Shown: positions 2,146-11,684, numbered from the stretch's first letter. The stretch is 64,000 nucleotides of DNA from Escherichia coli (GCA_025336685.1 GCA_025336685.1_4717.1), one strand, 5' to 3'. A program made the numbers and translations. Notes: a model not told the origin generated them from the sequence alone.

Positions 2146-4758
2146 TTATACGTCCGGCGTAAAATCAAAAGGAACGTCCGTACGAATGATATCATAACGT
2201 TTTCCTAAGAAATAGAACTCTTCGGGAACCAGACCGGGAATAATGCTATCGCCGATGAACTGTGGGTATGCCCAGATGTACTGAGTGAGTCCTTCGAACA
2301 TATCCAGGTTATTTGCGTGGTTACCCATGATACGTTTCCAGAGTTCGCGTTTATACGGTGTTTTGACATCGAACCCATAAAGCGGTGCGAGGTCTTCGCC
2401 AGGAACAAACCCCAGGTAATAGTGGATCTGACTAACCGGGAACCCAAGCGTATCTCGCGGAATGGTGATCGCTTGCTCGGCCTTGGTGACATGCGTCTCA
2501 ATAATCCAGTCGTAGCACTCCGAATAGAACCGATCGAATTTCTCTGGATTATACCACGCTTTGGGAAGATTCAGTTTCTCCGTGAACGCGTTCGACATGA
2601 TCGTCGGCAAGAACGGAAGAACGCCGGTTTTGATCTGCGTGTATTTCGATTTTACCCGATTGACTAGATTCCAGCAACTGTATCCTAATTGATCGTTGCA
2701 GAACTCAACGTAGAGATCGTAATCCCCACCCGATAATGGATTATTAATATCGCCGATGTCTGCCGCATATTTGTTGGGGTATCGGTTATTGAAAGCCAGT
2801 TTGGTTTGGTAATCGTAAATGCACGGTTTATTGTTCTTCGTGTTAATCCACCACCAGGGTTCACCCACCTGCACACAAATGTCTTGGACATGCGGGTAGA
2901 TGATATCAGCAAACGCGGTTAACACATCCCCTAACCACGCCATCGCGTGTTGGTTGCATGGCGACAACAACCAAGACGGCGGCGTATATCCGGTTGCTGC
3001 TATGTTTCCTTCCCAATCCTGCTGCGCCCACTCGAACGGGCATGCCGTGCTCATCAATTCGTAACTTAAACTGATTGTAACAGAGAAATGGTGTTTTGCA
3101 GCGTATGCGGCGAAAGCTTCATGCCATGCGATACAGGGTGGGTTGAGTACATCTGTGGTGTTCACCAGTAACTTACTCGCACTTGGTGTCCAGACAGTAT
3201 CGTAGAAATGCGACATTCCAACATAGTGCACTAATTCATCTTGATATCCCGCATAAACCAGGTTCTCAAATACGCGTTCCGGCGTGATGTTGTAATGGTC
3301 GTCATAAGCGGTTATCGCACGAAGCTCGTGTGGTGTACATTGGTGACGATTAACCGTCATTTCCTGATACACCCCATCAATAGGAAGAATCTCGAGGGTT
3401 AAACCGAGGTCGATCGGTGTTTCCAGGTAGGTCGTTTCTGTAGCACCTTCCTTATAATGTCGAGAACTCATGCTGAACATCAACGACGTGACCGATTCGA
3501 GTTCGATAGGTTCGTCAGCATAGAACCCCGCCATTGCGTCGTTGAAATCGATCGTTACGATTGCGCTTCTACCATCTTCAGAGACGTCGGTGGCGTATCG
3601 GGTTAATGAGATATACTGACGGCTATCGTCTTTGTGTACGACGGTTAAAACCGGCGGGTTTTCGGTATCCGCAAAGTTACGCTGATCGCCAGTAAACGTG
3701 ATCTTGGCTTTAAAGATCAAACCGAACAACGACGTCATGGGATCATACGCAACACAACCATGATCTAGCGTATCCGTTGTCCGCCATTCTATCCCTACCA
3801 ACCCGTTAGCGGTATGGCATCGCATATACGCATTAAGTGTCATGTCTTCACTGACAACCGCGAAGTTCTCTGTAGATTGACCGTTGATAATCCAATACAT
3901 CGGTTGCCAGAGGTTACGCGTGCCTTTTGCGTAGCGGTAGGTTGGTGCGCCTTTAGGGTTGCCGTTATTGAGATGGAATACAGCCGTACCTTGGTAATGA
4001 TCGTTCGTGTTAATCGGAACACTGTACGCGTCGCCGAGGTCCGTACGTTCGACCTTCGTGACAGTTGCGTTTTCAAACAGCCCACGTAGTGTAGGAAGAC
4101 CAATGTCATCAGGCGCGTTTTCTCGGCGAATCGCGTCCGCGATGCGGTGGGCTAGGGCGGGGTAAATGGTCTCACCCTGCTGTAGGTTTGCAAGACCTAC
4201 AAAGCGATCGGGGTTGATACCAGCAATCAATAACTCGACATCGCCCTTCGTTCTATCGTCATGGAGGTATTTCAGTCCAGTAAGATCAAGATGTTGAATT
4301 AACGACAACAGATTGTACTTACGGTTTTCAACAGTCAGTACAAGATCACCTGCCCAAACCAAACTTCCCTCATCCGCCGTTACTCTAACGGATTGGCGGC
4401 CTGTGGTAGACGTTGTTGTCGTTTTATTTAATTGTCCTTGTAGGAAGTCGGTTGCGAGGTCAAAGGCAACGCCGTAACGGTCAGCGACCGCCTGCATGAT
4501 TTCACGTAACTGGGTATCTTCTTCAATGATGATCTTGACAGGTATTCCCAAGAACGCCTTGGCGAGGTCTCGCTTAACCATCGAGACGAATACGGATTTG
4601 TAATATCGGCCTCCATCTTTCCCTTTAAAAAGAATGGAGGTTGTTTCGGGTGACGATAGAACACGTGCAAATTCAACATCGTCGAAAGTAAGAGAAAGTC
4701 CGTTTTTCTCGTTGGTTAATCTTAGTATTTCATTTTGCGCGGTTTCATGTAACTTCAT
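2146..4758 (-). CDS. tail spike/fibre-like receptor-binding protein (870 aa) with shared N-terminal anchor domain
   Basis: N-terminal ~170 aa (KRDLAKAFLGIPVKI...VWAGDL) paralogous to four other proteins in the window; large distal domain of unknown fold; TGAGG SD. Confidence 0.55.
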   Translation of the reverse strand: MKLHETAQNEILRLTNEKNGLSLTFDDVEFARVLSSPETTSILFKGKDGGRYYKSVFVSMVKRDLAKAFLGIPVKIIIEEDTQLREIMQAVADRYGVAFDLATDFLQGQLNKTTTTSTTGRQSVRVTADEGSLVWAGDLVLTVENRKYNLLSLIQHLDLTGLKYLHDDRTKGDVELLIAGINPDRFVGLANLQQGETIYPALAHRIADAIRRENAPDDIGLPTLRGLFENATVTKVERTDLGDAYSVPINTNDHYQGTAVFHLNNGNPKGAPTYRYAKGTRNLWQPMYWIINGQSTENFAVVSEDMTLNAYMRCHTANGLVGIEWRTTDTLDHGCVAYDPMTSLFGLIFKAKITFTGDQRNFADTENPPVLTVVHKDDSRQYISLTRYATDVSEDGRSAIVTIDFNDAMAGFYADEPIELESVTSLMFSMSSRHYKEGATETTYLETPIDLGLTLEILPIDGVYQEMTVNRHQCTPHELRAITAYDDHYNITPERVFENLVYAGYQDELVHYVGMSHFYDTVWTPSASKLLVNTTDVLNPPCIAWHEAFAAYAAKHHFSVTISLSYELMSTACPFEWAQQDWEGNIAATGYTPPSWLLSPCNQHAMAWLGDVLTAFADIIYPHVQDICVQVGEPWWWINTKNNKPCIYDYQTKLAFNNRYPNKYAADIGDINNPLSGGDYDLYVEFCNDQLGYSCWNLVNRVKSKYTQIKTGVLPFLPTIMSNAFTEKLNLPKAWYNPEKFDRFYSECYDWIIETHVTKAEQAITIPRDTLGFPVSQIHYYLGFVPGEDLAPLYGFDVKTPYKRELWKRIMGNHANNLDMFEGLTQYIWAYPQFIGDSIIPGLVPEEFYFLGKRYDIIRTDVPFDFTPDV

Positions 4759-4780
4759 TGAAAACCTCAGCCCTTTAGAA

Positions 4781-5422
4781 TTAGATGTACTGCTTACCGC
4801 CCACGAAGGAAGTTAGCCAGTTCCCACTGACAAGCTGTGATACCCAGCCAGGCACTGCCCTGCCATTCTGGCTCATGACGTTACCACACCAGCCAGGGAA
4901 TCCGGGACGGATATAATAGAAAGTTAAATTGTAGAGATGGCAATTCCATACCGCAACGTTATGTTTACCAGAAACCGCTTTAAAGACAAACGCAACGGGT
5001 AAAGGCGACGATAACAATTCAGTCACAGGAACGGCTGACCAGTTTGCGTTCGCGTTCCATGGTTGCCAGGTATGGCTACGCGAGTCGCAAAATACGTTAC
5101 CGTTGTTACCGCGCCCACCAGCATGCCACCACAGCGACGGACTCATGTTCTTAAGTGAGGTAAATTGCTGTGGTGGAATATTAGGAATAATAACAGGGTT
5201 GGTACCTTGCCCATGTTTCTTTTCTTTTGCGTTTACATACCCACTTATCGATTCGAGGTATTTGACACCAGGATAATTGTTCTGGACTTGTGTCGCAATA
5301 TCACGGACATCAAACGTCCAGCAGATCATGGTGTTGTAGTAAGCATCGGTGTTGTCGTACCAAGCGTTACCATCTTGTAAACGTGCGCCACTATTCGGTG
5401 TTTTATCTGTGCTTATAGCCAT
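4781..5422 (-). CDS. hypothetical tail-module protein (213 aa) with conserved C-terminal module
   Basis: C-terminal ~45 aa (RPGFPGWxGNVMSQNGRAVPGWVSQLVSGNWLTSFVGGKQY) identical to the next gene; AGGA SD. Confidence 0.5.
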   Translation of the reverse strand: MAISTDKTPNSGARLQDGNAWYDNTDAYYNTMICWTFDVRDIATQVQNNYPGVKYLESISGYVNAKEKKHGQGTNPVIIPNIPPQQFTSLKNMSPSLWWHAGGRGNNGNVFCDSRSHTWQPWNANANWSAVPVTELLSSPLPVAFVFKAVSGKHNVAVWNCHLYNLTFYYIRPGFPGWCGNVMSQNGRAVPGWVSQLVSGNWLTSFVGGKQYI

Positions 5423-5528
5423 GTTATTGTCCTATACTACGATGATTGAGATATCGAATGTCGGACGCTTGGTGCCGTCTGGTAGTACATACAGAAACAC
5501 CCACAGATAAAACAATAACTCCCATCAA

Positions 5529-6194
5529 TTAAATTGATGTTAGATACTGCTTACCTCCGACAAACGATGTCAACCAGTTCCCACTGACGAGCTGTGATAC
5601 CCAGCCAGGCACTGCCCTACCGTTCTGGCTCATCACATTACCCGCCCATCCCGGAAAACCAGGTCGGAAAATATATACTTGAATATGTGTTAAAGCGTTA
5701 TCATTACCTCCACCAACAGCAACATTACGACGTCCGGATGATGGGAAATATTCTTTTAAGAACAGGGGATCGTTTGCCAATAAAGAAGCGGGCCAAGGAT
5801 TAGCGGATGCGTCAACATCGAATTCGGTCCATCGCCATTTGCGTCCGGTATCGAACCAGGTTGACGTACCACCGCCACGCACCGCAAGATTGCGTGCATC
5901 ACGGGCACTGTATATTGATTCGATGTTTCGCCACCCACCTTTTGCGGCGTTTGCCGCATAGCAAATCGCATTACCACCATTCTTCTTTTCGTAAACGGTT
6001 CGTTTGATATGAACACGGTCGATAAACGCTTCACCGTATTTGTTGACGAGTGTTTGCGCGATATCACGAAGATCGTGCATATGAAAGGCGATGTCTTCGT
6101 TGTGGAACCACGTTGTCGGGTTCCAAACGGTGCCGTTTGGTTCGGCACACATCGATCGGATATTGTTGCGTTGATTAATCGCGATAAAGCCCAT
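5529..6194 (-). CDS. hypothetical tail-module protein (about 221 aa), paralog of 4781..5422
   Basis: Same C-terminal module with different N-terminal region; start chosen at internal ATG 6192-6194 with GAGG SD (ORF track extends to 6257 through the terminator). Confidence 0.5.
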   Translation of the reverse strand: MGFIAINQRNNIRSMCAEPNGTVWNPTTWFHNEDIAFHMHDLRDIAQTLVNKYGEAFIDRVHIKRTVYEKKNGGNAICYAANAAKGGWRNIESIYSARDARNLAVRGGGTSTWFDTGRKWRWTEFDVDASANPWPASLLANDPLFLKEYFPSSGRRNVAVGGGNDNALTHIQVYIFRPGFPGWAGNVMSQNGRAVPGWVSQLVSGNWLTSFVGGKQYLTSI

Positions 6195-6246
6195 GGTCCA
6201 CCTCGTTCCTGTTCTCGAAGGAAATTTCATACGATGACGCCATAAC

Positions 6247-6303
6247 AGCTCCCCCATCCTCCCAACCCGTAAGGGAAGGGAGGATGTAAGGGAAGGAGGA
6301 GCT
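6247..6303 (-). terminator. nested GC-rich hairpin terminator
   Basis: Inner stem CATCCTCCC/GGGAGGATG (6255-6263/6278-6286) with loop AACCCGTAAGGGAA, enclosed by AGCTCC/GGAGCT; downstream of the lipoprotein gene. Confidence 0.5.
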
Positions 6304-6309
6304 ATTTAA

Positions 6310-6813
6310 TTACTGGCTGACAACCTCAACGGAACTGGGATCGGCGATCAGCGCACGGTCGGTAGAACAATTGAAGAAGACCATGCCAACACCATCACCG
6401 TTCGAGTTCAGGGTTGAACTTACGTAAGACAATGTTGGTTTATTCATACGGTAGAAGCGTTCGTTGGTGGTGGTATTGAACCCCAGATCAACGTAGTCTT
6501 TCACCGTGGTGTACAACTGTGTGGACTCGAAAACGGTTACCGGAGAGTCAACGGTAAACTGACTACCTTCGTCCACTACCAGAACTTTATCGTTCCAGAT
6601 TTCAGTGGTTGAGAACTTCGGTTTCCAGTGTTCGAATTCCTGGGTTGCTCCCCAGCAGGAATACACAGCGAGATCGCTGTTCTTCTCAACAGGTTTTAAC
6701 CCCACCAGTTGTGTCAGGCCTTTATCCAGATTCGGTAAGCCTTCCAGTGTAGCACACCCACCCAGAGAAAGTACCATCAACATACCGAGAATAATCGCGC
6801 AAAGTTTCTTCAT
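6310..6813 (-). CDS. putative lipoprotein (167 aa)
   Basis: N-terminal MKKLCAIILGMLMVLSLGGC: signal peptide with lipobox-like LGGC; AAGGA SD. Confidence 0.55.
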   Translation of the reverse strand: MKKLCAIILGMLMVLSLGGCATLEGLPNLDKGLTQLVGLKPVEKNSDLAVYSCWGATQEFEHWKPKFSTTEIWNDKVLVVDEGSQFTVDSPVTVFESTQLYTTVKDYVDLGFNTTTNERFYRMNKPTLSYVSSTLNSNGDGVGMVFFNCSTDRALIADPSSVEVVSQ

Positions 6814-6857
6814 CGTCGGATTTCCTTATGTGTTAACGGAAGTGATTTCCATAGTAA

Positions 6858-7273
6858 TTACACAGTTTTAGGAAATTCCGGCCAATCGATATTTGGCGCG
6901 GCGTCGGTATCGATAGCCGTCACCTCGTCAATGTAATCCAAAACAGCATTAAGTTGGGCTGTTTCTTCCGGAGTCAGTTTTCGCCCGGCCCGTAATTTTA
7001 ACTGAATAAGATCAATGGAAGCCAGCGCAGAGTCAATCAGAGATTTTTTCATCTGTTCTGCCTCGGCGACGAGATCTTCGTGTTGCCGCTCGGGTTCCGG
7101 AGGTGCGGTAAACTCACCATTTGAGTATAACCAACCTATTCCAGGCGACACAGCTCCCGTATCGCTAATGCTGACCAACTGTTGATTGTCAGATACATCG
7201 AGCTCTGCTTCGCCATCGTAAACAATCGTGTTTACTACCACCCCATTTTCAATAACAGCGTATGATGTACTCA
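6858..7273 (-). CDS. tail fibre assembly protein (chaperone)
   Basis: Lies immediately after the long fibre gene; start ATG overlaps the fibre stop (ATGTAATGAGT); C-terminal region resembles phage Tfa chaperones. Confidence 0.55.
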
Positions 7274-10200
7274 TTACATAAACTCCTCGATGATGCAAAT
7301 CCCGTCAGCGCCACGCCCGCCACGCATAACGGTTCCAGTGTAACCGTTATCGTAAGCGCCGCCGCCCGAACCTCGTGCGAGGCCGTTTGACCCACCGCCA
7401 ACAGCTGCGCGACCACCGCCACCCCAATATGACGCACCCCCACCACCACATACAGGAAATGCGCCAGCCTGACCGTCATCACCATCACCACCTGAAATGC
7501 GTATATCCCCGGTACTAGGTACACCACCACCCCCACCGCCAGTGTTTGTGACAGTTGTTTTTCCTGCGCCTTGCCCACCGGGAGCAGTCAGCAGGGATGC
7601 AAATTTACTATCCCCGCCCCTGTTTCCAACTGTTGCCCCGGAACCACCAGTGCCACCAGAACCAATTACAACAGAATAACTAGTAGCCGCTACCGTTATA
7701 ACCGAAATTACTGTTGCCCCGGCCCCACCGCCAGCACCAAAAAACGTTTCGCTGTTGGAAAAAGCCTGGCAACCACCACCGCCGCCTCCACCACCGGTTA
7801 ATATTACTCTAATCCGTTTTGTTCCTTGTGTTGGGGTGTACGTCCCTGACGATGTGAAAACACGCATGTTCAGTAAACGTCCGACATATCCACTAGAATC
7901 GGCTAAACCAAGATCTTTAGCTGCTAACGTGATATTAGCTGTGCCATCGAAAGGTTTACCGTTAATCGTGCGTGCCGTCTGCAGCTTCGTGGCCGTTGCT
8001 GCGTTTCCTGACGTATTCTGGTTTCCCGCGGCGTTAACACCTGGTAGATTGATGTTCGCACTACCGTCGAAAGACACCCCACCAATGGTGCGGGCTGTCT
8101 TCAGTTTTGTCGCCGTGGCGGCATTACCGGTCGTGTCTTGGTTACCGGTGGTGTTTACCCCAGGTAGGTTGATATTGGCTGTTCCGTTAAATGAAACACC
8201 ACCAATCGTCCTTGCTGTTTGCAACTTCGTTGCGGATGCCGCATTCCCCGTGGTGTTTTGGTTACCTGTTGCATTCACGCCTGGGATGCTATCCTTAGAT
8301 GTGTAGATCTGTGCCCATTCCGACCAGTTCGAATCGGCCGCATCACGACGTGAACGTAGGTAAGCTGGAGCGTGTGCGCCTGAGGTACCTGACCACCCAA
8401 TGAGGATTTCACCTTCACCGACCGATGAAGCCCCTTTAAGATGAATGATGTTACCATAAGCGGTGGGATATCCGTTATTGTACGCTTCATACATCTGGAT
8501 GCCCGCATTGCTGCCCTGAGCCGTGTTAGCTAAGGCCGTAACACGACCTTTGGAAGCGAGAGCGTTAATACTGAAGCTAATATCCTTAGTACCGTCAAAG
8601 GCGACCCCATTAATCTTCCGTGCTGTTTGGAGTTTCGTAGCAGTAGCCGCATTACCAGAGGTACTCTGATTACCTGCTTTGTTCACGCCCGGTAAATCAA
8701 TGTTGGCTGTTCCATCAAAGGACACACCCCCTATGGTTCTCGCTGTCTGGAGTTTTGTTGCTGAACCAGCGTTTCCAGAAGTGCTTTGATTACCTGCCGC
8801 GTTGACACCCGGTAGGTCAATGCTAGCAGAACCATCAAAAGAAACTCCACCGATCGTGATCGGTGTTTTCAATTTCGTGGCTGTCGCAGCATTACCCGTC
8901 GTATTCTGATTGCCAGCAGCATTAACACCAGGTAATGCGATATCGGTCGTACCATCGAACGCAACACCACCGACTTTACGGGCGGTCTGTAGCTTGGTCG
9001 CTGTAGCCGCGTTGCCGCTGGTATTTTGCGTGCCTGCTTTATTTACGCCAGGCAAATCAATGTTCGCAGTACCATCAAAAGAAACACCCCCGATGGTTCT
9101 CGCGGTCTCAAGTTTGGTTGCGCTTCCTGCGTTTCCGCTGGTGCTTTGATTTCCCGCTGCATCAACACCTGGTAGATTGATGCTGGCCGAACCATCGAAA
9201 CTCACACCACCGATAGTAACAGCGGTTTTCAACTTCGTCGCCGTTGCTGCGTTACCGGTTGTATTTTGATTGCCTGTCGCATTAACGCCCGGTAATGCAA
9301 TATCCGCTGTTCCGTCAAAGGCAACGCCACCGATTCTACGTGCAGTTTGTAGCTTGGTTGCACTAGCAGCGTTACCGCTGGTATTCTGGGTGCCAGCTTT
9401 GTTAACACCGGGGAGATCGATATTAGCAGAACCATCGAAGCTGACGCCACCTATCGTTCTTGCAGTATCGAGTTTAGCTGCTGTGGCTGCATTATTACCC
9501 ACTTTCAGCCAATCATCCCATGGACCATCCTGGCCGTTCCATGATGCCGTTAAACTACGTACGTAAATATTGCCGGTACGTACAGTGTAACGTTGCGTTC
9601 CACCGAATTGTCCGGCAGGGAGCACTTCAAGGTAACCTGCAGCATTTGCTTCAGGGAAATTGTGGGCGACGTCCGCGTTCGTTGATACTGGTTTAGACCA
9701 AATACCCACAGACACTTCAACCGGACCGTAAGTATTCAGATTTGCGTCGGTGGGGAGCTGTCCTCGAAAACGTTGGAATTGTGTCGCCGATAACCCCAAC
9801 GTTGTTTGCATGCTTTCAATGCTGGATTGCTGAAGTAACGTCCGTGCTGTCGATGTAATCACGGTAAGCGCAACTTTATTAACACCGGTGAAATACGGGA
9901 GTTTGTCTGCTGATGTCGCTAAACCTGAAAAGGCGGTCAGTAATGCGTTAAGGGGCTGCTTCCCAGCTAACGCATTTGTTACCGTCGTTGCGAAATTAGG
10001 ATCGCTTCCTATAGCTCGAGCCAGCTTATTAAGCGTATTTAGCGTCGCTGGTGACGAGTCGATCAGCGCCGTGATCGCACGCATCACAAATTCCGTGTTG
10101 GCTATCTGTCGACTGCTATTGTTAACTGCTGCGGTGGGCGCTGCTGGCGTACCAGTGAATACAGGGCTATTAAGATCCGCCTTGAGGGCGATGAGACGTT

Positions 10201-11149
10201 TAAGCGCTTCAACATCGACTTTCAGGTTTTCCCATCCGATGAGAGAACCACCACTGTTGGCATGGTAACGGTTGTACCAGAAGTCACCGTTAACGCCTAA
10301 AAAGAATATTCCCTTCTCTTCGTTTTGTGGGCCGGAACTATTTCGTGATGCGCTGATATATTTGATTTTAATAATACCGTTAAACACCACTCCTGGGATT
10401 ATTTCGCTGCTTCCAGCTAACTGTGATACTTGGTAAATCCCCGGGGTCGCAGCTTTAACCCATGTTAAGAATTCTGTTACTCCGGCGTTACCACTGAAAT
10501 TCTTAACGTCGGTAAGTATCGCACCATAACCGAACATACCGGGCAGAGCAACTCGTCCGTTGGTACGGTCACGAATATTTGATGCGATTACAGGTAGCTG
10601 TTTACGAACATTATTAACCGCCTTAGGTGTGGCCGATTTTGTCTCATCGTCGCTATCGATGGCGTTGCTCAGGATGGTCAGCCCTCGCTTAGCAGTAGTT
10701 GCATCAGGAAGAAATGCGTTATCCAACACCTTAAGCTGTATTGCACTCGTATTACTAACAACGACATGCATCTGACAGTTAAGAACGCTGGTTGCGCCTT
10801 CGGTAGGCATAGGCTTATATCTTTCTGGTGCACTGCAGACGGCAATCAGAACACCCTTGTCGTCGTACAGACCGATCTCACGTACCCAGAACCCACCTTG
10901 ACTGGCAGGAATAATACCCTCAACGACAATCCTGGTTGTACTATCGCCATCCGCATGGATATTAGAAACTTCCCCACGATAAACTTCGTGAACAAGCGCT
11001 GTTTGGCTGGCGGTCGGGGTTGGTGTCGAGCCGTTACCATCACCAACGGCAAAGTGTGTGATTTTTAGTTTCTCACCGTCGGGAAGTAACGCAGCGGTGA
11101 TACGTTCTGCTCCTTTATCGGTAACTACCGTTTTATATGCTGTACTCAT
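7274..11149 (-). CDS. long tail fibre protein (about 1291 aa from internal Met; ORF track 1318 aa)
   Basis: About 12 degenerate ~34-aa repeats (TARTIGGVSFDGTANIDLPGVNxAGNQNTSGNAATATKLQ) typical of phage fibres; Gly-rich C-terminal domain; likely start MSTAYKTVV at 11147-11149. Confidence 0.8.
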   Translation of the reverse strand: MSTAYKTVVTDKGAERITAALLPDGEKLKITHFAVGDGNGSTPTPTASQTALVHEVYRGEVSNIHADGDSTTRIVVEGIIPASQGGFWVREIGLYDDKGVLIAVCSAPERYKPMPTEGATSVLNCQMHVVVSNTSAIQLKVLDNAFLPDATTAKRGLTILSNAIDSDDETKSATPKAVNNVRKQLPVIASNIRDRTNGRVALPGMFGYGAILTDVKNFSGNAGVTEFLTWVKAATPGIYQVSQLAGSSEIIPGVVFNGIIKIKYISASRNSSGPQNEEKGIFFLGVNGDFWYNRYHANSGGSLIGWENLKVDVEALKRLIALKADLNSPVFTGTPAAPTAAVNNSSRQIANTEFVMRAITALIDSSPATLNTLNKLARAIGSDPNFATTVTNALAGKQPLNALLTAFSGLATSADKLPYFTGVNKVALTVITSTARTLLQQSSIESMQTTLGLSATQFQRFRGQLPTDANLNTYGPVEVSVGIWSKPVSTNADVAHNFPEANAAGYLEVLPAGQFGGTQRYTVRTGNIYVRSLTASWNGQDGPWDDWLKVGNNAATAAKLDTARTIGGVSFDGSANIDLPGVNKAGTQNTSGNAASATKLQTARRIGGVAFDGTADIALPGVNATGNQNTTGNAATATKLKTAVTIGGVSFDGSASINLPGVDAAGNQSTSGNAGSATKLETARTIGGVSFDGTANIDLPGVNKAGTQNTSGNAATATKLQTARKVGGVAFDGTTDIALPGVNAAGNQNTTGNAATATKLKTPITIGGVSFDGSASIDLPGVNAAGNQSTSGNAGSATKLQTARTIGGVSFDGTANIDLPGVNKAGNQSTSGNAATATKLQTARKINGVAFDGTKDISFSINALASKGRVTALANTAQGSNAGIQMYEAYNNGYPTAYGNIIHLKGASSVGEGEILIGWSGTSGAHAPAYLRSRRDAADSNWSEWAQIYTSKDSIPGVNATGNQNTTGNAASATKLQTARTIGGVSFNGTANINLPGVNTTGNQDTTGNAATATKLKTARTIGGVSFDGSANINLPGVNAAGNQNTSGNAATATKLQTARTINGKPFDGTANITLAAKDLGLADSSGYVGRLLNMRVFTSSGTYTPTQGTKRIRVILTGGGGGGGGCQAFSNSETFFGAGGGAGATVISVITVAATSYSVVIGSGGTGGSGATVGNRGGDSKFASLLTAPGGQGAGKTTVTNTGGGGGGVPSTGDIRISGGDGDDGQAGAFPVCGGGGASYWGGGGRAAVGGGSNGLARGSGGGAYDNGYTGTVMRGGRGADGICIIEEFM
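7905..8285 (-). repeat. coding tandem repeats, block B (about 3 units) inside the long fibre gene
   Basis: Same ~34-aa unit after a ~100-aa non-repeat spacer. Confidence 0.55.
8575..9485 (-). repeat. coding tandem repeats, block A (about 9 units of ~102 bp) inside the long fibre gene
   Basis: Repeated GGVSFDG...LPGVN...TGNAATATKL units read from the translation; DNA copies are diverged. Confidence 0.6.
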
Positions 11150-11156
11150 GGTGTTT

Positions 11157-11684
11157 TTATCCTGGATAAATAGTGATGATATCACCAATGACCGTTGTGG
11201 CACCGGCGTAAAGATGAGCCGGAGATACATCGTGTTGGTTTGTCACGGTAAGATCCAATCGACCACGCCAAACCATGGAGGTATTCGCGATGGGGATAGA
11301 AATCTTTTTGGATATATCGTCACGAAAATCAATAACAGTGGCAAGGGTAACTGTATCAAAGTCAACGTCGGGGTCAAAGACGAACCCGTATTGATCTGAA
11401 ATCGCCCGAATAATCGCGTGTATAGTTGTTGTCTTAACAGACTCTAAAACGATTTTTATTGGTATTCCTAGAAATGCCTTCGCAATATCGCGTCGAGCGT
11501 AAACGATAAAACTTTCACCGTTCCACCTTGTTCCTTCATTTGCTGTGACGATCACTTTTGCCCTGTTAGCACCAGAACTTCCATCCAAGACTAATGTAAG
11601 ATCGGAGCTGTTGAATACGCTACTGTTACGTCTGTTTATCAACGACGTCAGTTCGTCTTTCCATGGCGGGTAAAGTGAACACAT
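11157..11684 (-). CDS. free-standing anchor-domain protein (about 175 aa) upstream of the long fibre
   Basis: Paralog of the N-terminal domain of the 870/590/503-aa proteins (YARRDIAKAFLGIPIKI); start MCSLYPPWKDEL with GGAGGAGGG SD. Confidence 0.5.
   Translation of the reverse strand: MCSLYPPWKDELTSLINRRNSSVFNSSDLTLVLDGSSGANRAKVIVTANEGTRWNGESFIVYARRDIAKAFLGIPIKIVLESVKTTTIHAIIRAISDQYGFVFDPDVDFDTVTLATVIDFRDDISKKISIPIANTSMVWRGRLDLTVTNQHDVSPAHLYAGATTVIGDIITIYPG

What the first reader, a model, noticed from the sequence alone, without database searches (positions are those of the whole stretch)
4817..4879. Near-identical 63-bp direct repeat at the 3' ends of two adjacent paralogous genes
4817-4879 and 5574-5636 differ at only 4 of 63 positions, within about 135 nt of recognisable homology. 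They encode an identical C-terminal peptide (…GNVMSQNGRAVPGWVSQLVSGNWLTSF…) on two proteins whose N-terminal parts are unrelated. This looks like a recombination cassette boundary or ongoing gene conversion, allowing N-terminal domain swapping on a constant C-terminal module.
Basis: seen in the sequence. Interest (0 to 1): 0.45.

Follow-up and report, generated by a model that had tools for sequence, protein, structure and literature searches.

The report
Gene conversion between tandem phage paralogs
Two neighbouring genes of a Goslar-like jumbo phage encode related sugar-binding-type virion proteins, and their shared tail-end module has recently been copied from one gene to the other; the same module marks where relatives swap the rest of the gene, an ordinary but clean example of how phages reshuffle likely host-recognition parts.

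Summary
The repeat is real. Window 4817-4879 and 5574-5636 differ at 4 of 63 bases, inside a 131-nt repeat that is 82% identical. It lies at the 3' ends of two minus-strand genes, A (4781-5422) and B (5529-6194).

They share 25% identity (E 4e-6), and both are predicted to have the same CBM-like beta-sandwich fold.

The window is a relative of E. coli jumbo phage Goslar, and A is Goslar gp87. I compared 26 gene copies from about 20 related genomes.

- **Flanks versus core:** the codons on either side of the 63-nt core encode the same amino acids but are saturated with synonymous changes, and they cluster by gene type. The core is a mosaic that ignores gene type.
- **Conversion tracts:** this is short-tract gene conversion, with 4 differences in the window and an 80-nt identical tract in its closest relative.
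- **Body swaps:** the start of the module is also the 3' breakpoint of body exchanges in both gene slots (B versus C, and A versus a divergent A).
- **Goslar:** it lost its upstream copy by deletion but keeps a stub of that copy and a C-type tract in gp87.

The family has no Pfam or PHROG entry and was found only in jumbo phages. Published mass spectrometry detected gp87 in Goslar virion preparations. Its function as a docked glycan-binding accessory is inferred, not shown.

The parts
4781..5422 (-). Gene A, 213 aa. It is the ortholog of Goslar gp87 (Goslar_00087 / HOV27_gp087) and fills the downstream slot, always directly before the 870-aa gp86 homolog. Predicted CBM-like beta-sandwich.
5529..6194 (-). 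Gene B, 221 aa. It is a paralog of A in the upstream slot. It is absent from Goslar and from every record of the phage collection searched, and present in several metagenomic relatives.
4788..4918 (-). DNA encoding the conserved C-terminal module of A (YYIRPGFPGWCGNVMSQNGRAVPGWVSQLVSGNWLTSFVGGKQY), repeat copy 1.
   Evidence: the repeat finder D1. Family-wide invariant residues F, P, P, G, G, L within it.
5545..5675 (-). DNA encoding the conserved C-terminal module of B, repeat copy 2, 82% identical to copy 1.
   Evidence: the repeat finder D1. Alignment.
4817..4879 (-). Gene-conversion core in A (codons V..W of VMSQNGRAVPGWVSQLVSGNW). It has 4/63 differences from B but 9-14/63 from orthologous A genes.
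5574..5636 (-). Gene-conversion core in B. It has 12-18/63 differences from orthologous B genes but 4/63 from the neighbouring A.
5664..6200 (-). Exchangeable 'body' cassette of the upstream slot. Homology between B-type and C-type genomes is lost between about 6200 (just upstream of the start codon) and about 5664 (the first codons of the module).
   Evidence: blastn breakpoints for L019 and L004 against the window. Codon-level identity profile.

Best explanation
A and B are tandem, anciently diverged paralogs of a small, unannotated, jumbo-phage-specific protein family. Each has a variable CBM-like beta-sandwich body followed by a roughly 45-residue C-terminal module that is under very strong protein-level constraint.

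Shown:
- Because the module can vary only at synonymous sites, it is the one stretch where the paralogs keep enough DNA identity for homologous recombination.
- Short-tract, non-reciprocal exchange (gene conversion) repeatedly copies 20-80 nt patches of the module between the paralogs, in both directions and with variable endpoints. The 63-bp near-identity in this window is one recent tract.
- The start of the module, together with the start-codon region, also serves as the homology arm for replacing the whole body between phages. The upstream slot holds body B, body C or a deleted C. The downstream slot holds body A or a divergent A.

Inferred:
- The proteins are low-copy virion accessories near the tail fibres or peripheral baseplate.
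- The variable body binds a host surface glycan.
- The invariant module is the part that must fit a common partner or fold element. This would explain why it stays constant while the bodies are exchanged.
For: Synonymous-site contrast within the window: 4/21 identical-amino-acid codons differ in the core and 14/19 in the flanks.

Distance matrices. In the 30-nt flanks, copies cluster by type (A-A 0-2 differences, A versus B/C 7-13). In the 63-nt core the type structure collapses: win_A-win_B 4, Gos_A-L004_C 5, L003_B-L004_C 4, A-A 8-16.

The full 26-copy table shows tracts with different endpoints: L018_A, L015_A, Gos_A/L023_A, L026_A, and an A-like left flank in L025_B. Triplet tests give contiguous runs with p 7.5e-5 to 5e-7. 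The longest identical A/B run is 80 nt in L018 and 29 nt in the window.

Cassette boundaries. C versus B. L003 A versus L005 A.

Goslar-type genomes keep the first 11-12 codons of C (MAIARTIGFTS) at a shared deletion junction. This explains the C-type tract in Goslar gp87.

Family-wide conservation of the motif, including in distant members where it is internal to the protein.

Context: the genes sit next to the tail fibre, Tfa and gp86 genes. Distant members in PCH45 and SPLA10 end a block of large virion-protein genes next to a baseplate gene.

Goslar gp87 was detected in purified virions at an estimated 13-30 copies (preprint 10.64898/2026.04.21.720040, Table S4; mass check).
Against: - Only two of nine two-copy genomes (the window and L018, which are close relatives) have homogenised neighbours. 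The permutation test for within-genome similarity is weak (p 0.059). Many tracts must therefore come from exchange between co-infecting phages or from partners since lost, not from the present neighbour.
- No reciprocal crossover product (B body with A tail, or the deletion it would cause) was seen among 26 copies.
- The loss of the upstream gene in Goslar is an illegitimate deletion and is not repeat-mediated.
- The functional part rests on predicted folds from shallow alignments (7 and 14 sequences). The conserved core is the low-confidence part of both models (pLDDT below 50).
- The authors of the mass-spectrometry study state that their preparation also contains non-virion assemblies. gp87 was not placed in any cryo-EM density.
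Confidence: 0.75

Rival explanations
1. Purifying selection alone: the two 3' ends look alike only because the peptide they encode is essential, with no DNA exchange.
For: The motif is conserved across the whole family, with F-P, P-G, G and L invariant even in members that are 22-26% identical. In seven of nine two-copy genomes the neighbouring cores differ at 14-18 of 63 positions, the level expected for selection alone.
Against: The flanks encode equally identical amino acids, yet 14/19 of their codons differ, against 4/21 in the core. Window A matches window B rather than its orthologs in one contiguous run. L018 has an 80-nt perfect tract that includes a shared non-synonymous change.
Confidence: 0.05
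2. A nucleotide-level functional element (RNA structure, promoter, or a binding or packaging site) is embedded in both 3' ends and keeps the DNA identical.
For: The identity is at the DNA level and is sharply bounded.
Against: No Rfam match at E up to 1. Folding z-scores of -1.3, -1.7, +0.5 and -0.8 are not significant. No sigma-70-like promoter in the region. The same 63 nt vary freely at synonymous sites among relatives, giving at least five haplotypes of A. The only Chi site in the window (5115-5122) lies outside the repeat and is at chance expectation.
Confidence: 0.03
3. Recent partial duplication: the 3' end of one gene was recently duplicated onto an unrelated or fast-evolving neighbour, so the repeat is a young duplication scar and not conversion between old paralogs.
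Against: The bodies are homologous along their whole length and share the same predicted fold. The module flanks are about 30% diverged at the nucleotide level, so the module as a whole is old and only the core patch is young. The B-A arrangement is shared by divergent relatives (L003, L021, L022, L025).
Confidence: 0.04
4. Assembly artefact: reads from the two paralogs were collapsed or mixed across the conserved stretch, creating false identity.
For: The window and most relatives are metagenomic assemblies. One short contig (L024) is visibly chimeric at the 3' end of A.
Against: Independent assemblies from different projects show the same arrangement. L018 shows an even longer tract with its own private substitution present in both copies. 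The cultured, finished Goslar genome carries a C-type tract and the stub of the C gene.
Confidence: 0.03

Closest known systems
Recombination between conserved motifs in the distal tail-fibre/adhesin locus of T-even phages (gp37/gp38; Tetart et al., J Mol Biol 1998; from my own knowledge, not retrieved here)
   Same: Short, highly conserved coding motifs inside host-recognition genes act as homology patches. Recombination there swaps the variable segments between phages and produces mosaic genes with breakpoints at the motifs.
   Different: There is no sequence or fold relationship to gp38. Here there is a single C-terminal module and not several glycine-rich motifs. The partners include tandem paralogs within one genome. 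A host-recognition role is inferred, not shown.
Concerted evolution by gene conversion of duplicated bacterial genes (for example tufA/tufB of Salmonella, rRNA operons; rates for E. coli rrn operons in PMC8022953, seen in the listing but not read)
   Same: Non-reciprocal short-tract transfer between paralogs in one genome. It is detected as synonymous identity and as a tree for the tract that conflicts with the tree for the flanks.
   Different: Here only a 20-80 nt patch is homogenised and the rest of the genes stays at about 25% protein identity. Exchange between co-infecting phages contributes as well. The recombinase responsible is unknown, and the phage DNA replicates inside a protein-walled nucleus.
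Modular receptor-binding proteins with a conserved anchor and exchangeable receptor-binding part (for example T7-like and Klebsiella phage depolymerases with a conserved N-terminal anchor; the DUF7941 N-terminal module of Goslar gp86/gp92/gp161 in preprint 10.64898/2026.04.21.720040)
   Same: A constant module combined with interchangeable, probably glycan-binding, parts. Several variants occur per genome.
   Different: The constant part here is C-terminal and only about 45 residues long. The proteins are small single-domain units of about 215 aa. Whether the module is an anchor at all is untested.
Carbohydrate-binding modules with a beta-sandwich fold (8wab_B DNRLRE-domain chondroitin-sulfate-binding CBM; 7vbo_A alginate-binding CBM; CBM15/35/36/6)
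   Different: Sequence identity is 7-9%. There is no Pfam or NCBIfam hit. The PGFPGW...NWL module has no counterpart in these CBMs. No ligand is known.
Invertible tail-fibre cassettes of Mu/P1 (Gin/Cin) and diversity-generating retroelements
   Same: They diversify phage host-recognition genes around a constant part.
   Different: Those systems need inverted crossover sites plus an invertase, or a template repeat plus a reverse transcriptase with adenine-specific changes. Here the repeats are direct and the four differences (C/G, T/C, C/T, T/C) are not adenine-specific.

Membership tests
Gene conversion between paralogs (concerted evolution) | Two homologous copies in the same genome | tested here: met
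   A and B are homologous over their full length and lie 757 nt apart.
Gene conversion between paralogs (concerted evolution) | A tract whose synonymous-site identity exceeds that of equally constrained flanks | tested here: met
   4/21 versus 14/19 identical-amino-acid codons differ, Fisher p 0.0012.
Gene conversion between paralogs (concerted evolution) | Tract phylogeny discordant with flank and ortholog phylogeny | tested here: met
   Distance matrices. Contiguous paralog-type runs, p 7.5e-5 to 5e-7.
Gene conversion between paralogs (concerted evolution) | Within-genome copies generally more alike than between-genome copies | tested here: inconclusive
   This holds for the window and L018 only. 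Permutation p 0.059 over nine two-copy genomes.
Gene conversion between paralogs (concerted evolution) | Direct observation of non-reciprocal transfer events | not testable with these tools
   Needs marked-allele passage experiments or long-read population data.
Conserved-motif-mediated cassette exchange in phage host-recognition genes (T-even gp37/gp38 type) | Mosaic breakpoints among relatives coincide with the conserved motif | tested here: met
   B versus C: identity jump at the module start. L003 A versus L005 A: breakpoint just before the module.
Conserved-motif-mediated cassette exchange in phage host-recognition genes (T-even gp37/gp38 type) | The protein is a receptor-binding or adhesin component of the virion | tested here: inconclusive
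   CBM-like predicted fold, tail-fibre gene neighbourhood, and gp87 in Goslar virion mass spectrometry at about 13-30 copies. There are no binding or host-range data.
Conserved-motif-mediated cassette exchange in phage host-recognition genes (T-even gp37/gp38 type) | Homology to gp38/gp37 | tested here: not met
   No Pfam, PHROG or NCBIfam hits. The fold hits are CBMs, not gp38.
Carbohydrate-binding module (beta-sandwich CBM) | Beta-sandwich CBM fold | tested here: met
Carbohydrate-binding module (beta-sandwich CBM) | Sequence membership in a curated CBM family | tested here: not met
   No Pfam or NCBIfam match at E up to 1. No PDB sequence match.
Carbohydrate-binding module (beta-sandwich CBM) | Demonstrated glycan binding | not testable with these tools
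   Requires glycan arrays or binding assays.
Tail fibre assembly protein (Caudo_TAP) | Match to PF02413 or Tfa PHROGs | tested here: not met
   A and B give no hit. The true Tfa is the separate gene 6858-7298.
Site-specific invertible cassette (Gin/Cin) or DGR | Inverted crossover sites, or a template/variable repeat pair with adenine-specific differences | tested here: not met
   The repeats are direct. The four differences are C/G, T/C, C/T and T/C.
Site-specific invertible cassette (Gin/Cin) or DGR | Adjacent invertase or reverse transcriptase gene | not tested
   Only the six neighbouring genes 2146-11230 were scanned, and none is a recombinase or reverse transcriptase.

The most novel reading that the evidence does not exclude
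The roughly 45-residue PGFPGW...GNWL module could be a dedicated docking peg. It would plug interchangeable glycan-binding 'heads' (bodies A, divergent A, B, C) into one fixed socket on the still-unresolved peripheral baseplate or fibre apparatus of Goslar-like nucleus-forming phages. Gene conversion would then keep all heads compatible with that socket while their specificities diverge. That would make this a compact exchangeable-adhesin cartridge system with a constant C-terminal plug, a layout not described for phage receptor-binding proteins.
Probability: 0.25. Interest if true: 0.6.

Novelty: new member of a known kind. Interest (0 to 1): 0.42.

Why it matters
Goslar is a main model for nucleus-forming jumbo phages. 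Its tail fibres and peripheral baseplate could not be resolved in the 2026 cryo-EM structure, and gp87 was left uninterpreted there.

This analysis defines a jumbo-phage-specific family (gp87 and its B and C paralogs). It gives the family a predicted CBM-like fold and shows that its gene content varies between close relatives: one or two copies and at least four body types.

It also identifies the conserved C-terminal module as the recombination substrate. That gives concrete candidates for host-range determinants and a natural design rule for engineering: swap the body between the start codon and the module.

As population genetics, it is a well-resolved case of short-tract conversion in a lytic phage whose DNA is secluded from host recombination enzymes. 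That seclusion points to a phage-encoded recombination system, although this was not examined here.

Tried and rejected
- **Protein families:** Pfam, PHROGs and NCBIfam gave nothing for A, B or the distant members. A profile search against PDB sequences gave only a chance hit at E 0.36.
- **RNA and regulatory signals:** no Rfam match. RNA folding of the repeat copies was not significant. No sigma-70 promoter and no convincing terminator in the repeat.
- **Chi site:** the window has one copy, at 5115-5122 inside the body of A. This is at chance expectation and outside the repeat.
- **Extra copies:** none elsewhere in the window.
- **Bacterial genomes:** no relative in 185,579 species genomes.
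- **Repeat-mediated deletion as the origin of the one-copy Goslar arrangement:** rejected. The junction joins codon 12 of a C-type gene to a point about 45 nt upstream of A, without useful microhomology, and is shared by all one-copy genomes.
- **Frameshift in the A gene of L004:** rejected. It is an in-frame premature stop.
- **L015 as the source of the window:** rejected. It lacks B and is only about 84% identical in the neighbouring gene.
- **Within-genome homogenisation as a general rule:** only weakly supported (p 0.059).
- **Not available:** the afdb50 Foldseek library was not installed.
- **Literature:** a search for phage paralog gene conversion returned nothing directly relevant.

Full report
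**1. What is in the sequence**

All genes in this part of the window are on the minus strand. Gene A is 4781-5422 (213 aa). Gene B is 5529-6194 (221 aa). The ORF list gives a start for B at 6257, but the ATG at 6194 is preceded by GAGGTGG, and the upstream extension runs into the hairpin that follows the previous gene.

The segments 4817-4879 and 5574-5636 differ at exactly 4 of 63 positions. The whole ungapped direct repeat is 4788-4918 versus 5545-5675, 131 nt at 82% identity. It is the only direct repeat in the region, and there is no third copy in the 64-kb window. Both copies encode ...GNVMSQNGRAVPGWVSQLVSGNWLTSFVGGKQY.

The full proteins align at 39% identity over 198 aa (E 4e-35). The N-terminal 171 and 176 residues alone align at 25% identity over 140 aa (E 4e-6, about 7 sd above shuffled controls).

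**2. Where the window comes from, and the neighbourhood**

The region is about 92% identical to E. coli jumbo phage vB_EcoM_Goslar, a nucleus-forming chimallivirus, and A is the ortholog of Goslar_00087. Read in the direction of transcription, the genes are:

- the P1 gpS-like tail fibre (7274-11230);
- its Caudo_TAP assembly protein (6858-7298);
- a 167-aa protein with a lipoprotein signal (6310-6813);
- B, then A;
- an 870-aa DUF7941 + NCTSP protein (2146-4758), which is Goslar gp86.

Goslar has no B. Window 5475-6190 is an indel relative to it.

**3. The family**

A and B match no Pfam, PHROG or NCBIfam model. In 5.8 billion clustered proteins, only five clusters are related. A profile search of 1.84 billion representatives finds 11.

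The distant members include proteins of Serratia phage PCH45 and Salmonella phage SPLA10, both genomes of about 210 kb. In both, the gene ends a block of large virion-protein genes next to a baseplate gene. No relative occurs in 185,579 bacterial and archaeal species genomes.

Across the whole family, the motif PGFPGW-x8-NG-x-AVPGW-x-SQL-x2-GNWL is the most conserved part. This holds even in the 316-368 aa members, where it is internal to the protein. The amino-acid conservation of the module is therefore ancient and functional.

**4. Evidence for gene conversion**

I collected 26 copies of the module from about 20 Goslar-like genomes and contigs. There are three body types:

- A, always in the downstream slot;
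- B, in the upstream slot;
- C, also in the upstream slot, as an alternative to B.

In the 30 nt on either side of the core (encoding RPGFPGWxGN and LTSFVGGKQY), the copies cluster strictly by type. A genes are 0-2 differences apart. A differs from B or C at 7-13 of 30 positions although the amino acids are the same, which means the synonymous sites are saturated.

In the 63-nt core this structure collapses. Window A and window B differ by 4. Goslar A and L004 C differ by 5. L003 B and L004 C differ by 4. A orthologs differ from one another by 8-16.

The full table shows patches with different endpoints:

| Copy | What it shows |
|---|---|
| L018 A (genome 98% identical to the window here) | Identical to its own B over 80 nt, including a Val-to-Ile change found in both copies |
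| L015 A | B-like tract covering only the left half of the module |
| Goslar A and L023 A | C-type tracts |
| L026 A | Two-codon patch |
| L025 B | A-like left flank, so transfer goes both ways |

I also ran triplet tests of recipient, putative donor and an ortholog of the recipient. They give single contiguous runs of donor-type sites flanked by ortholog-type sites, with Fisher p of 7.5e-5 (window), 6e-4 (L018), 5e-7 (Goslar) and 1e-6 (L023).

Within the window, 4 of 21 identical-amino-acid codons differ in the core and 14 of 19 differ in the flanks (p 0.0012). At the unconverted A-versus-B rate of 18/63, four or fewer differences has probability 1e-5.

One limit applies. Only the window and L018 have homogenised neighbours. 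The other seven two-copy genomes differ at 14-18 of 63 core positions, and the permutation test for within-genome similarity gives p 0.059. Conversion is therefore episodic, and some tracts must derive from partners since lost or from co-infecting phages.

**5. Evidence that the module is a cassette boundary**

*B versus C in the upstream slot.* C has an A-like body (35% identity to A, 24% to B). From the first codons of the module onward, however, its DNA is 87-96% identical to B and only about 70% identical to A. blastn places the limits of the non-homologous segment at window positions about 6200 (the start codon) and about 5664 (the module start).

*A versus a divergent A in the downstream slot.* L003's A is 65-78% identical to other A genes through the body. 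It is 97-100% identical from just before the module through the next gene.

In both slots, therefore, the body has been replaced between a constant 5' end and the constant module. I saw no body/tail chimeras between slots: every A body carries the ...QYI* tail, every B body ...QYLTSI, and every C body ...RYLNAI.

**6. History of the one-copy arrangement**

All one-copy genomes (Goslar, L005, L015, L017, L020, L023) retain ATG GCG ATA GCG CGA ACT ATA GGG TTC ACG TCC AG. These are the first 11-12 codons of C (MAIARTIGFTS). In each genome they are fused at the same point to sequence that lies about 45 nt upstream of A in C-type genomes.

The one-copy state is thus a single ancestral, illegitimate deletion of C and was not mediated by the repeat. 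It neatly explains why Goslar gp87 carries a C-type conversion tract although Goslar has no second copy today.

**7. Alternatives examined**

- **Nucleotide-level element.** This is unlikely. There is no Rfam hit, no significant RNA structure and no promoter-like site. The core varies freely at synonymous sites among relatives. The single Chi site in the window lies outside the repeat and is at chance expectation.
- **Recent partial duplication.** The saturated flanks contradict it.
- **Assembly artefact.** Independent assemblies and the finished Goslar genome argue against it.
- **Invertible cassette or DGR.** The repeats are direct, and the four differences are not adenine-specific.

**8. 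Function (inferred)**

A 2026 preprint on the Goslar virion (10.64898/2026.04.21.720040) does not discuss gp87. Its Table S4 lists HOV27_gp087 (23,641.5 Da, which matches the 213-aa protein) with 4 peptides, 28.6% coverage and an estimated 13-30 copies per virion.

| Goslar protein | Estimated copies per virion |
|---|---|
| gp87 (gene A ortholog) | about 13-30 |
| gp90 (tail fibre) | about 29-68 |
| gp89 (Tfa) | about 35-82 |
| gp86 | about 3-7 |

The authors note that the peripheral baseplate and fibres were not resolved, and that the preparation also contained non-virion assemblies.

Three observations point the same way: the CBM-like fold, the position among tail-fibre genes in three phage lineages, and the presence/absence and allelic variation among close relatives. 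Together they suggest a low-copy virion accessory whose variable body binds a surface glycan. The invariant module would be the part constrained by a common partner or fold requirement. This is inference. No binding, localisation or host-range data exist.

**9. Verdict**

The phenomenon is short-tract gene conversion plus motif-bounded cassette exchange in phage tail-associated genes. That is a known kind of process, closest to the T-even gp37/gp38 locus, seen here in a new and unannotated protein family of a prominent jumbo-phage model. Interest is moderate.

Noticed in passing
L001 (Goslar MK327938 segment) about 8033-8107, minus strand; the same in L005, L015, L017, L020, L023: One-copy genomes keep a 24-codon stub ORF (MAIARTIGFTSSTHPISATSTTNI*). 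Its first 11-12 codons are the start of the C-type paralog, so Goslar descends from a two-copy ancestor by a single illegitimate deletion of about 700 nt.
   Followed up: yes
window 5399-5411 and 5502-5514: A perfect 13-nt inverted repeat (TGTTTTATCTGTG / CACAGATAAAACA). One arm is in the B-A intergenic region and the other is in codons 5-9 of A, so on the mRNA the stem would enclose A's ribosome-binding site and start codon. The upstream arm is conserved in all two-copy relatives within an otherwise variable spacer (one mismatch in C-type genomes) and is deleted in Goslar-type genomes. The stem appears in the MFE fold, but the z-score is only -1.45.
   Followed up: partly
window 6310-6813, minus strand: The 167-aa protein directly upstream of B has a lipoprotein-type signal (MKKLCAIILGMLMVLSLGGC...). 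It matches only phrog_9559, which has no known function. Its Goslar ortholog gp88 is reported at about 490-1160 copies per virion preparation, among the most abundant unassigned proteins. That is odd for a lipoprotein. It could be a membrane contaminant (for example a superinfection-exclusion protein) or a true virion component. It precedes the A/B/C genes in every Goslar-like locus, including L002.
   Followed up: partly
window 6255-6300: A G+C-rich hairpin and a 17-nt tandem unit (GTAAGGGAAGGGAGGAT, 1.9 copies) lie between the lipoprotein-like gene and B. It looks like a terminator but has no T-run. The mechanical ORF start of B at 6257 lies inside it.
   Followed up: no
window 7274-11230 (repeats 8622-9436): The tail-fibre gene contains 120-nt and 360-nt tandem coding repeats (units of about 40 aa, ...TARTIGGVSFDGSANIDLPGVN...). 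The fibre length differs among close relatives (1009, 1104, 1172, 1212, 1252, 1292, 1318 aa). L003 has a different C-terminus (Peptidase_S74) and no separate Tfa gene.
   Followed up: no
L003 7224-7991; also L024, L025 and protein P0001: In several relatives the stop codon of B (TAA after ...LTSI) is replaced by a lysine codon. B then reads 34 codons into the intergenic spacer (255 aa, ...KLKLEKLLFYLWVFLYVPPD...).
   Followed up: no
L004 2441-3085: In this C-A genome the A gene starts with GTG and has an in-frame premature stop at codon 98, with no indel. A may be a pseudogene there, or this may be a sequencing error.
   Followed up: partly
L002 (ERZ27298684 k141_12685) 4199-7973: A more distant relative keeps the lipoprotein-like gene and a B-type gene (70% identical to B). 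It lacks A, the gp86 homolog, the P1-like fibre and the Tfa. B is followed directly by the 189-aa and 124-aa genes. B therefore does not depend on those neighbours.
   Followed up: no
L024 (MAVE01000145.1) about 2024 onward: The 3' end of A is joined after ...LTSFV to sequence from the opposite strand of the gp86 homolog. This is probably a chimeric short contig and not a real rearrangement.
   Followed up: no
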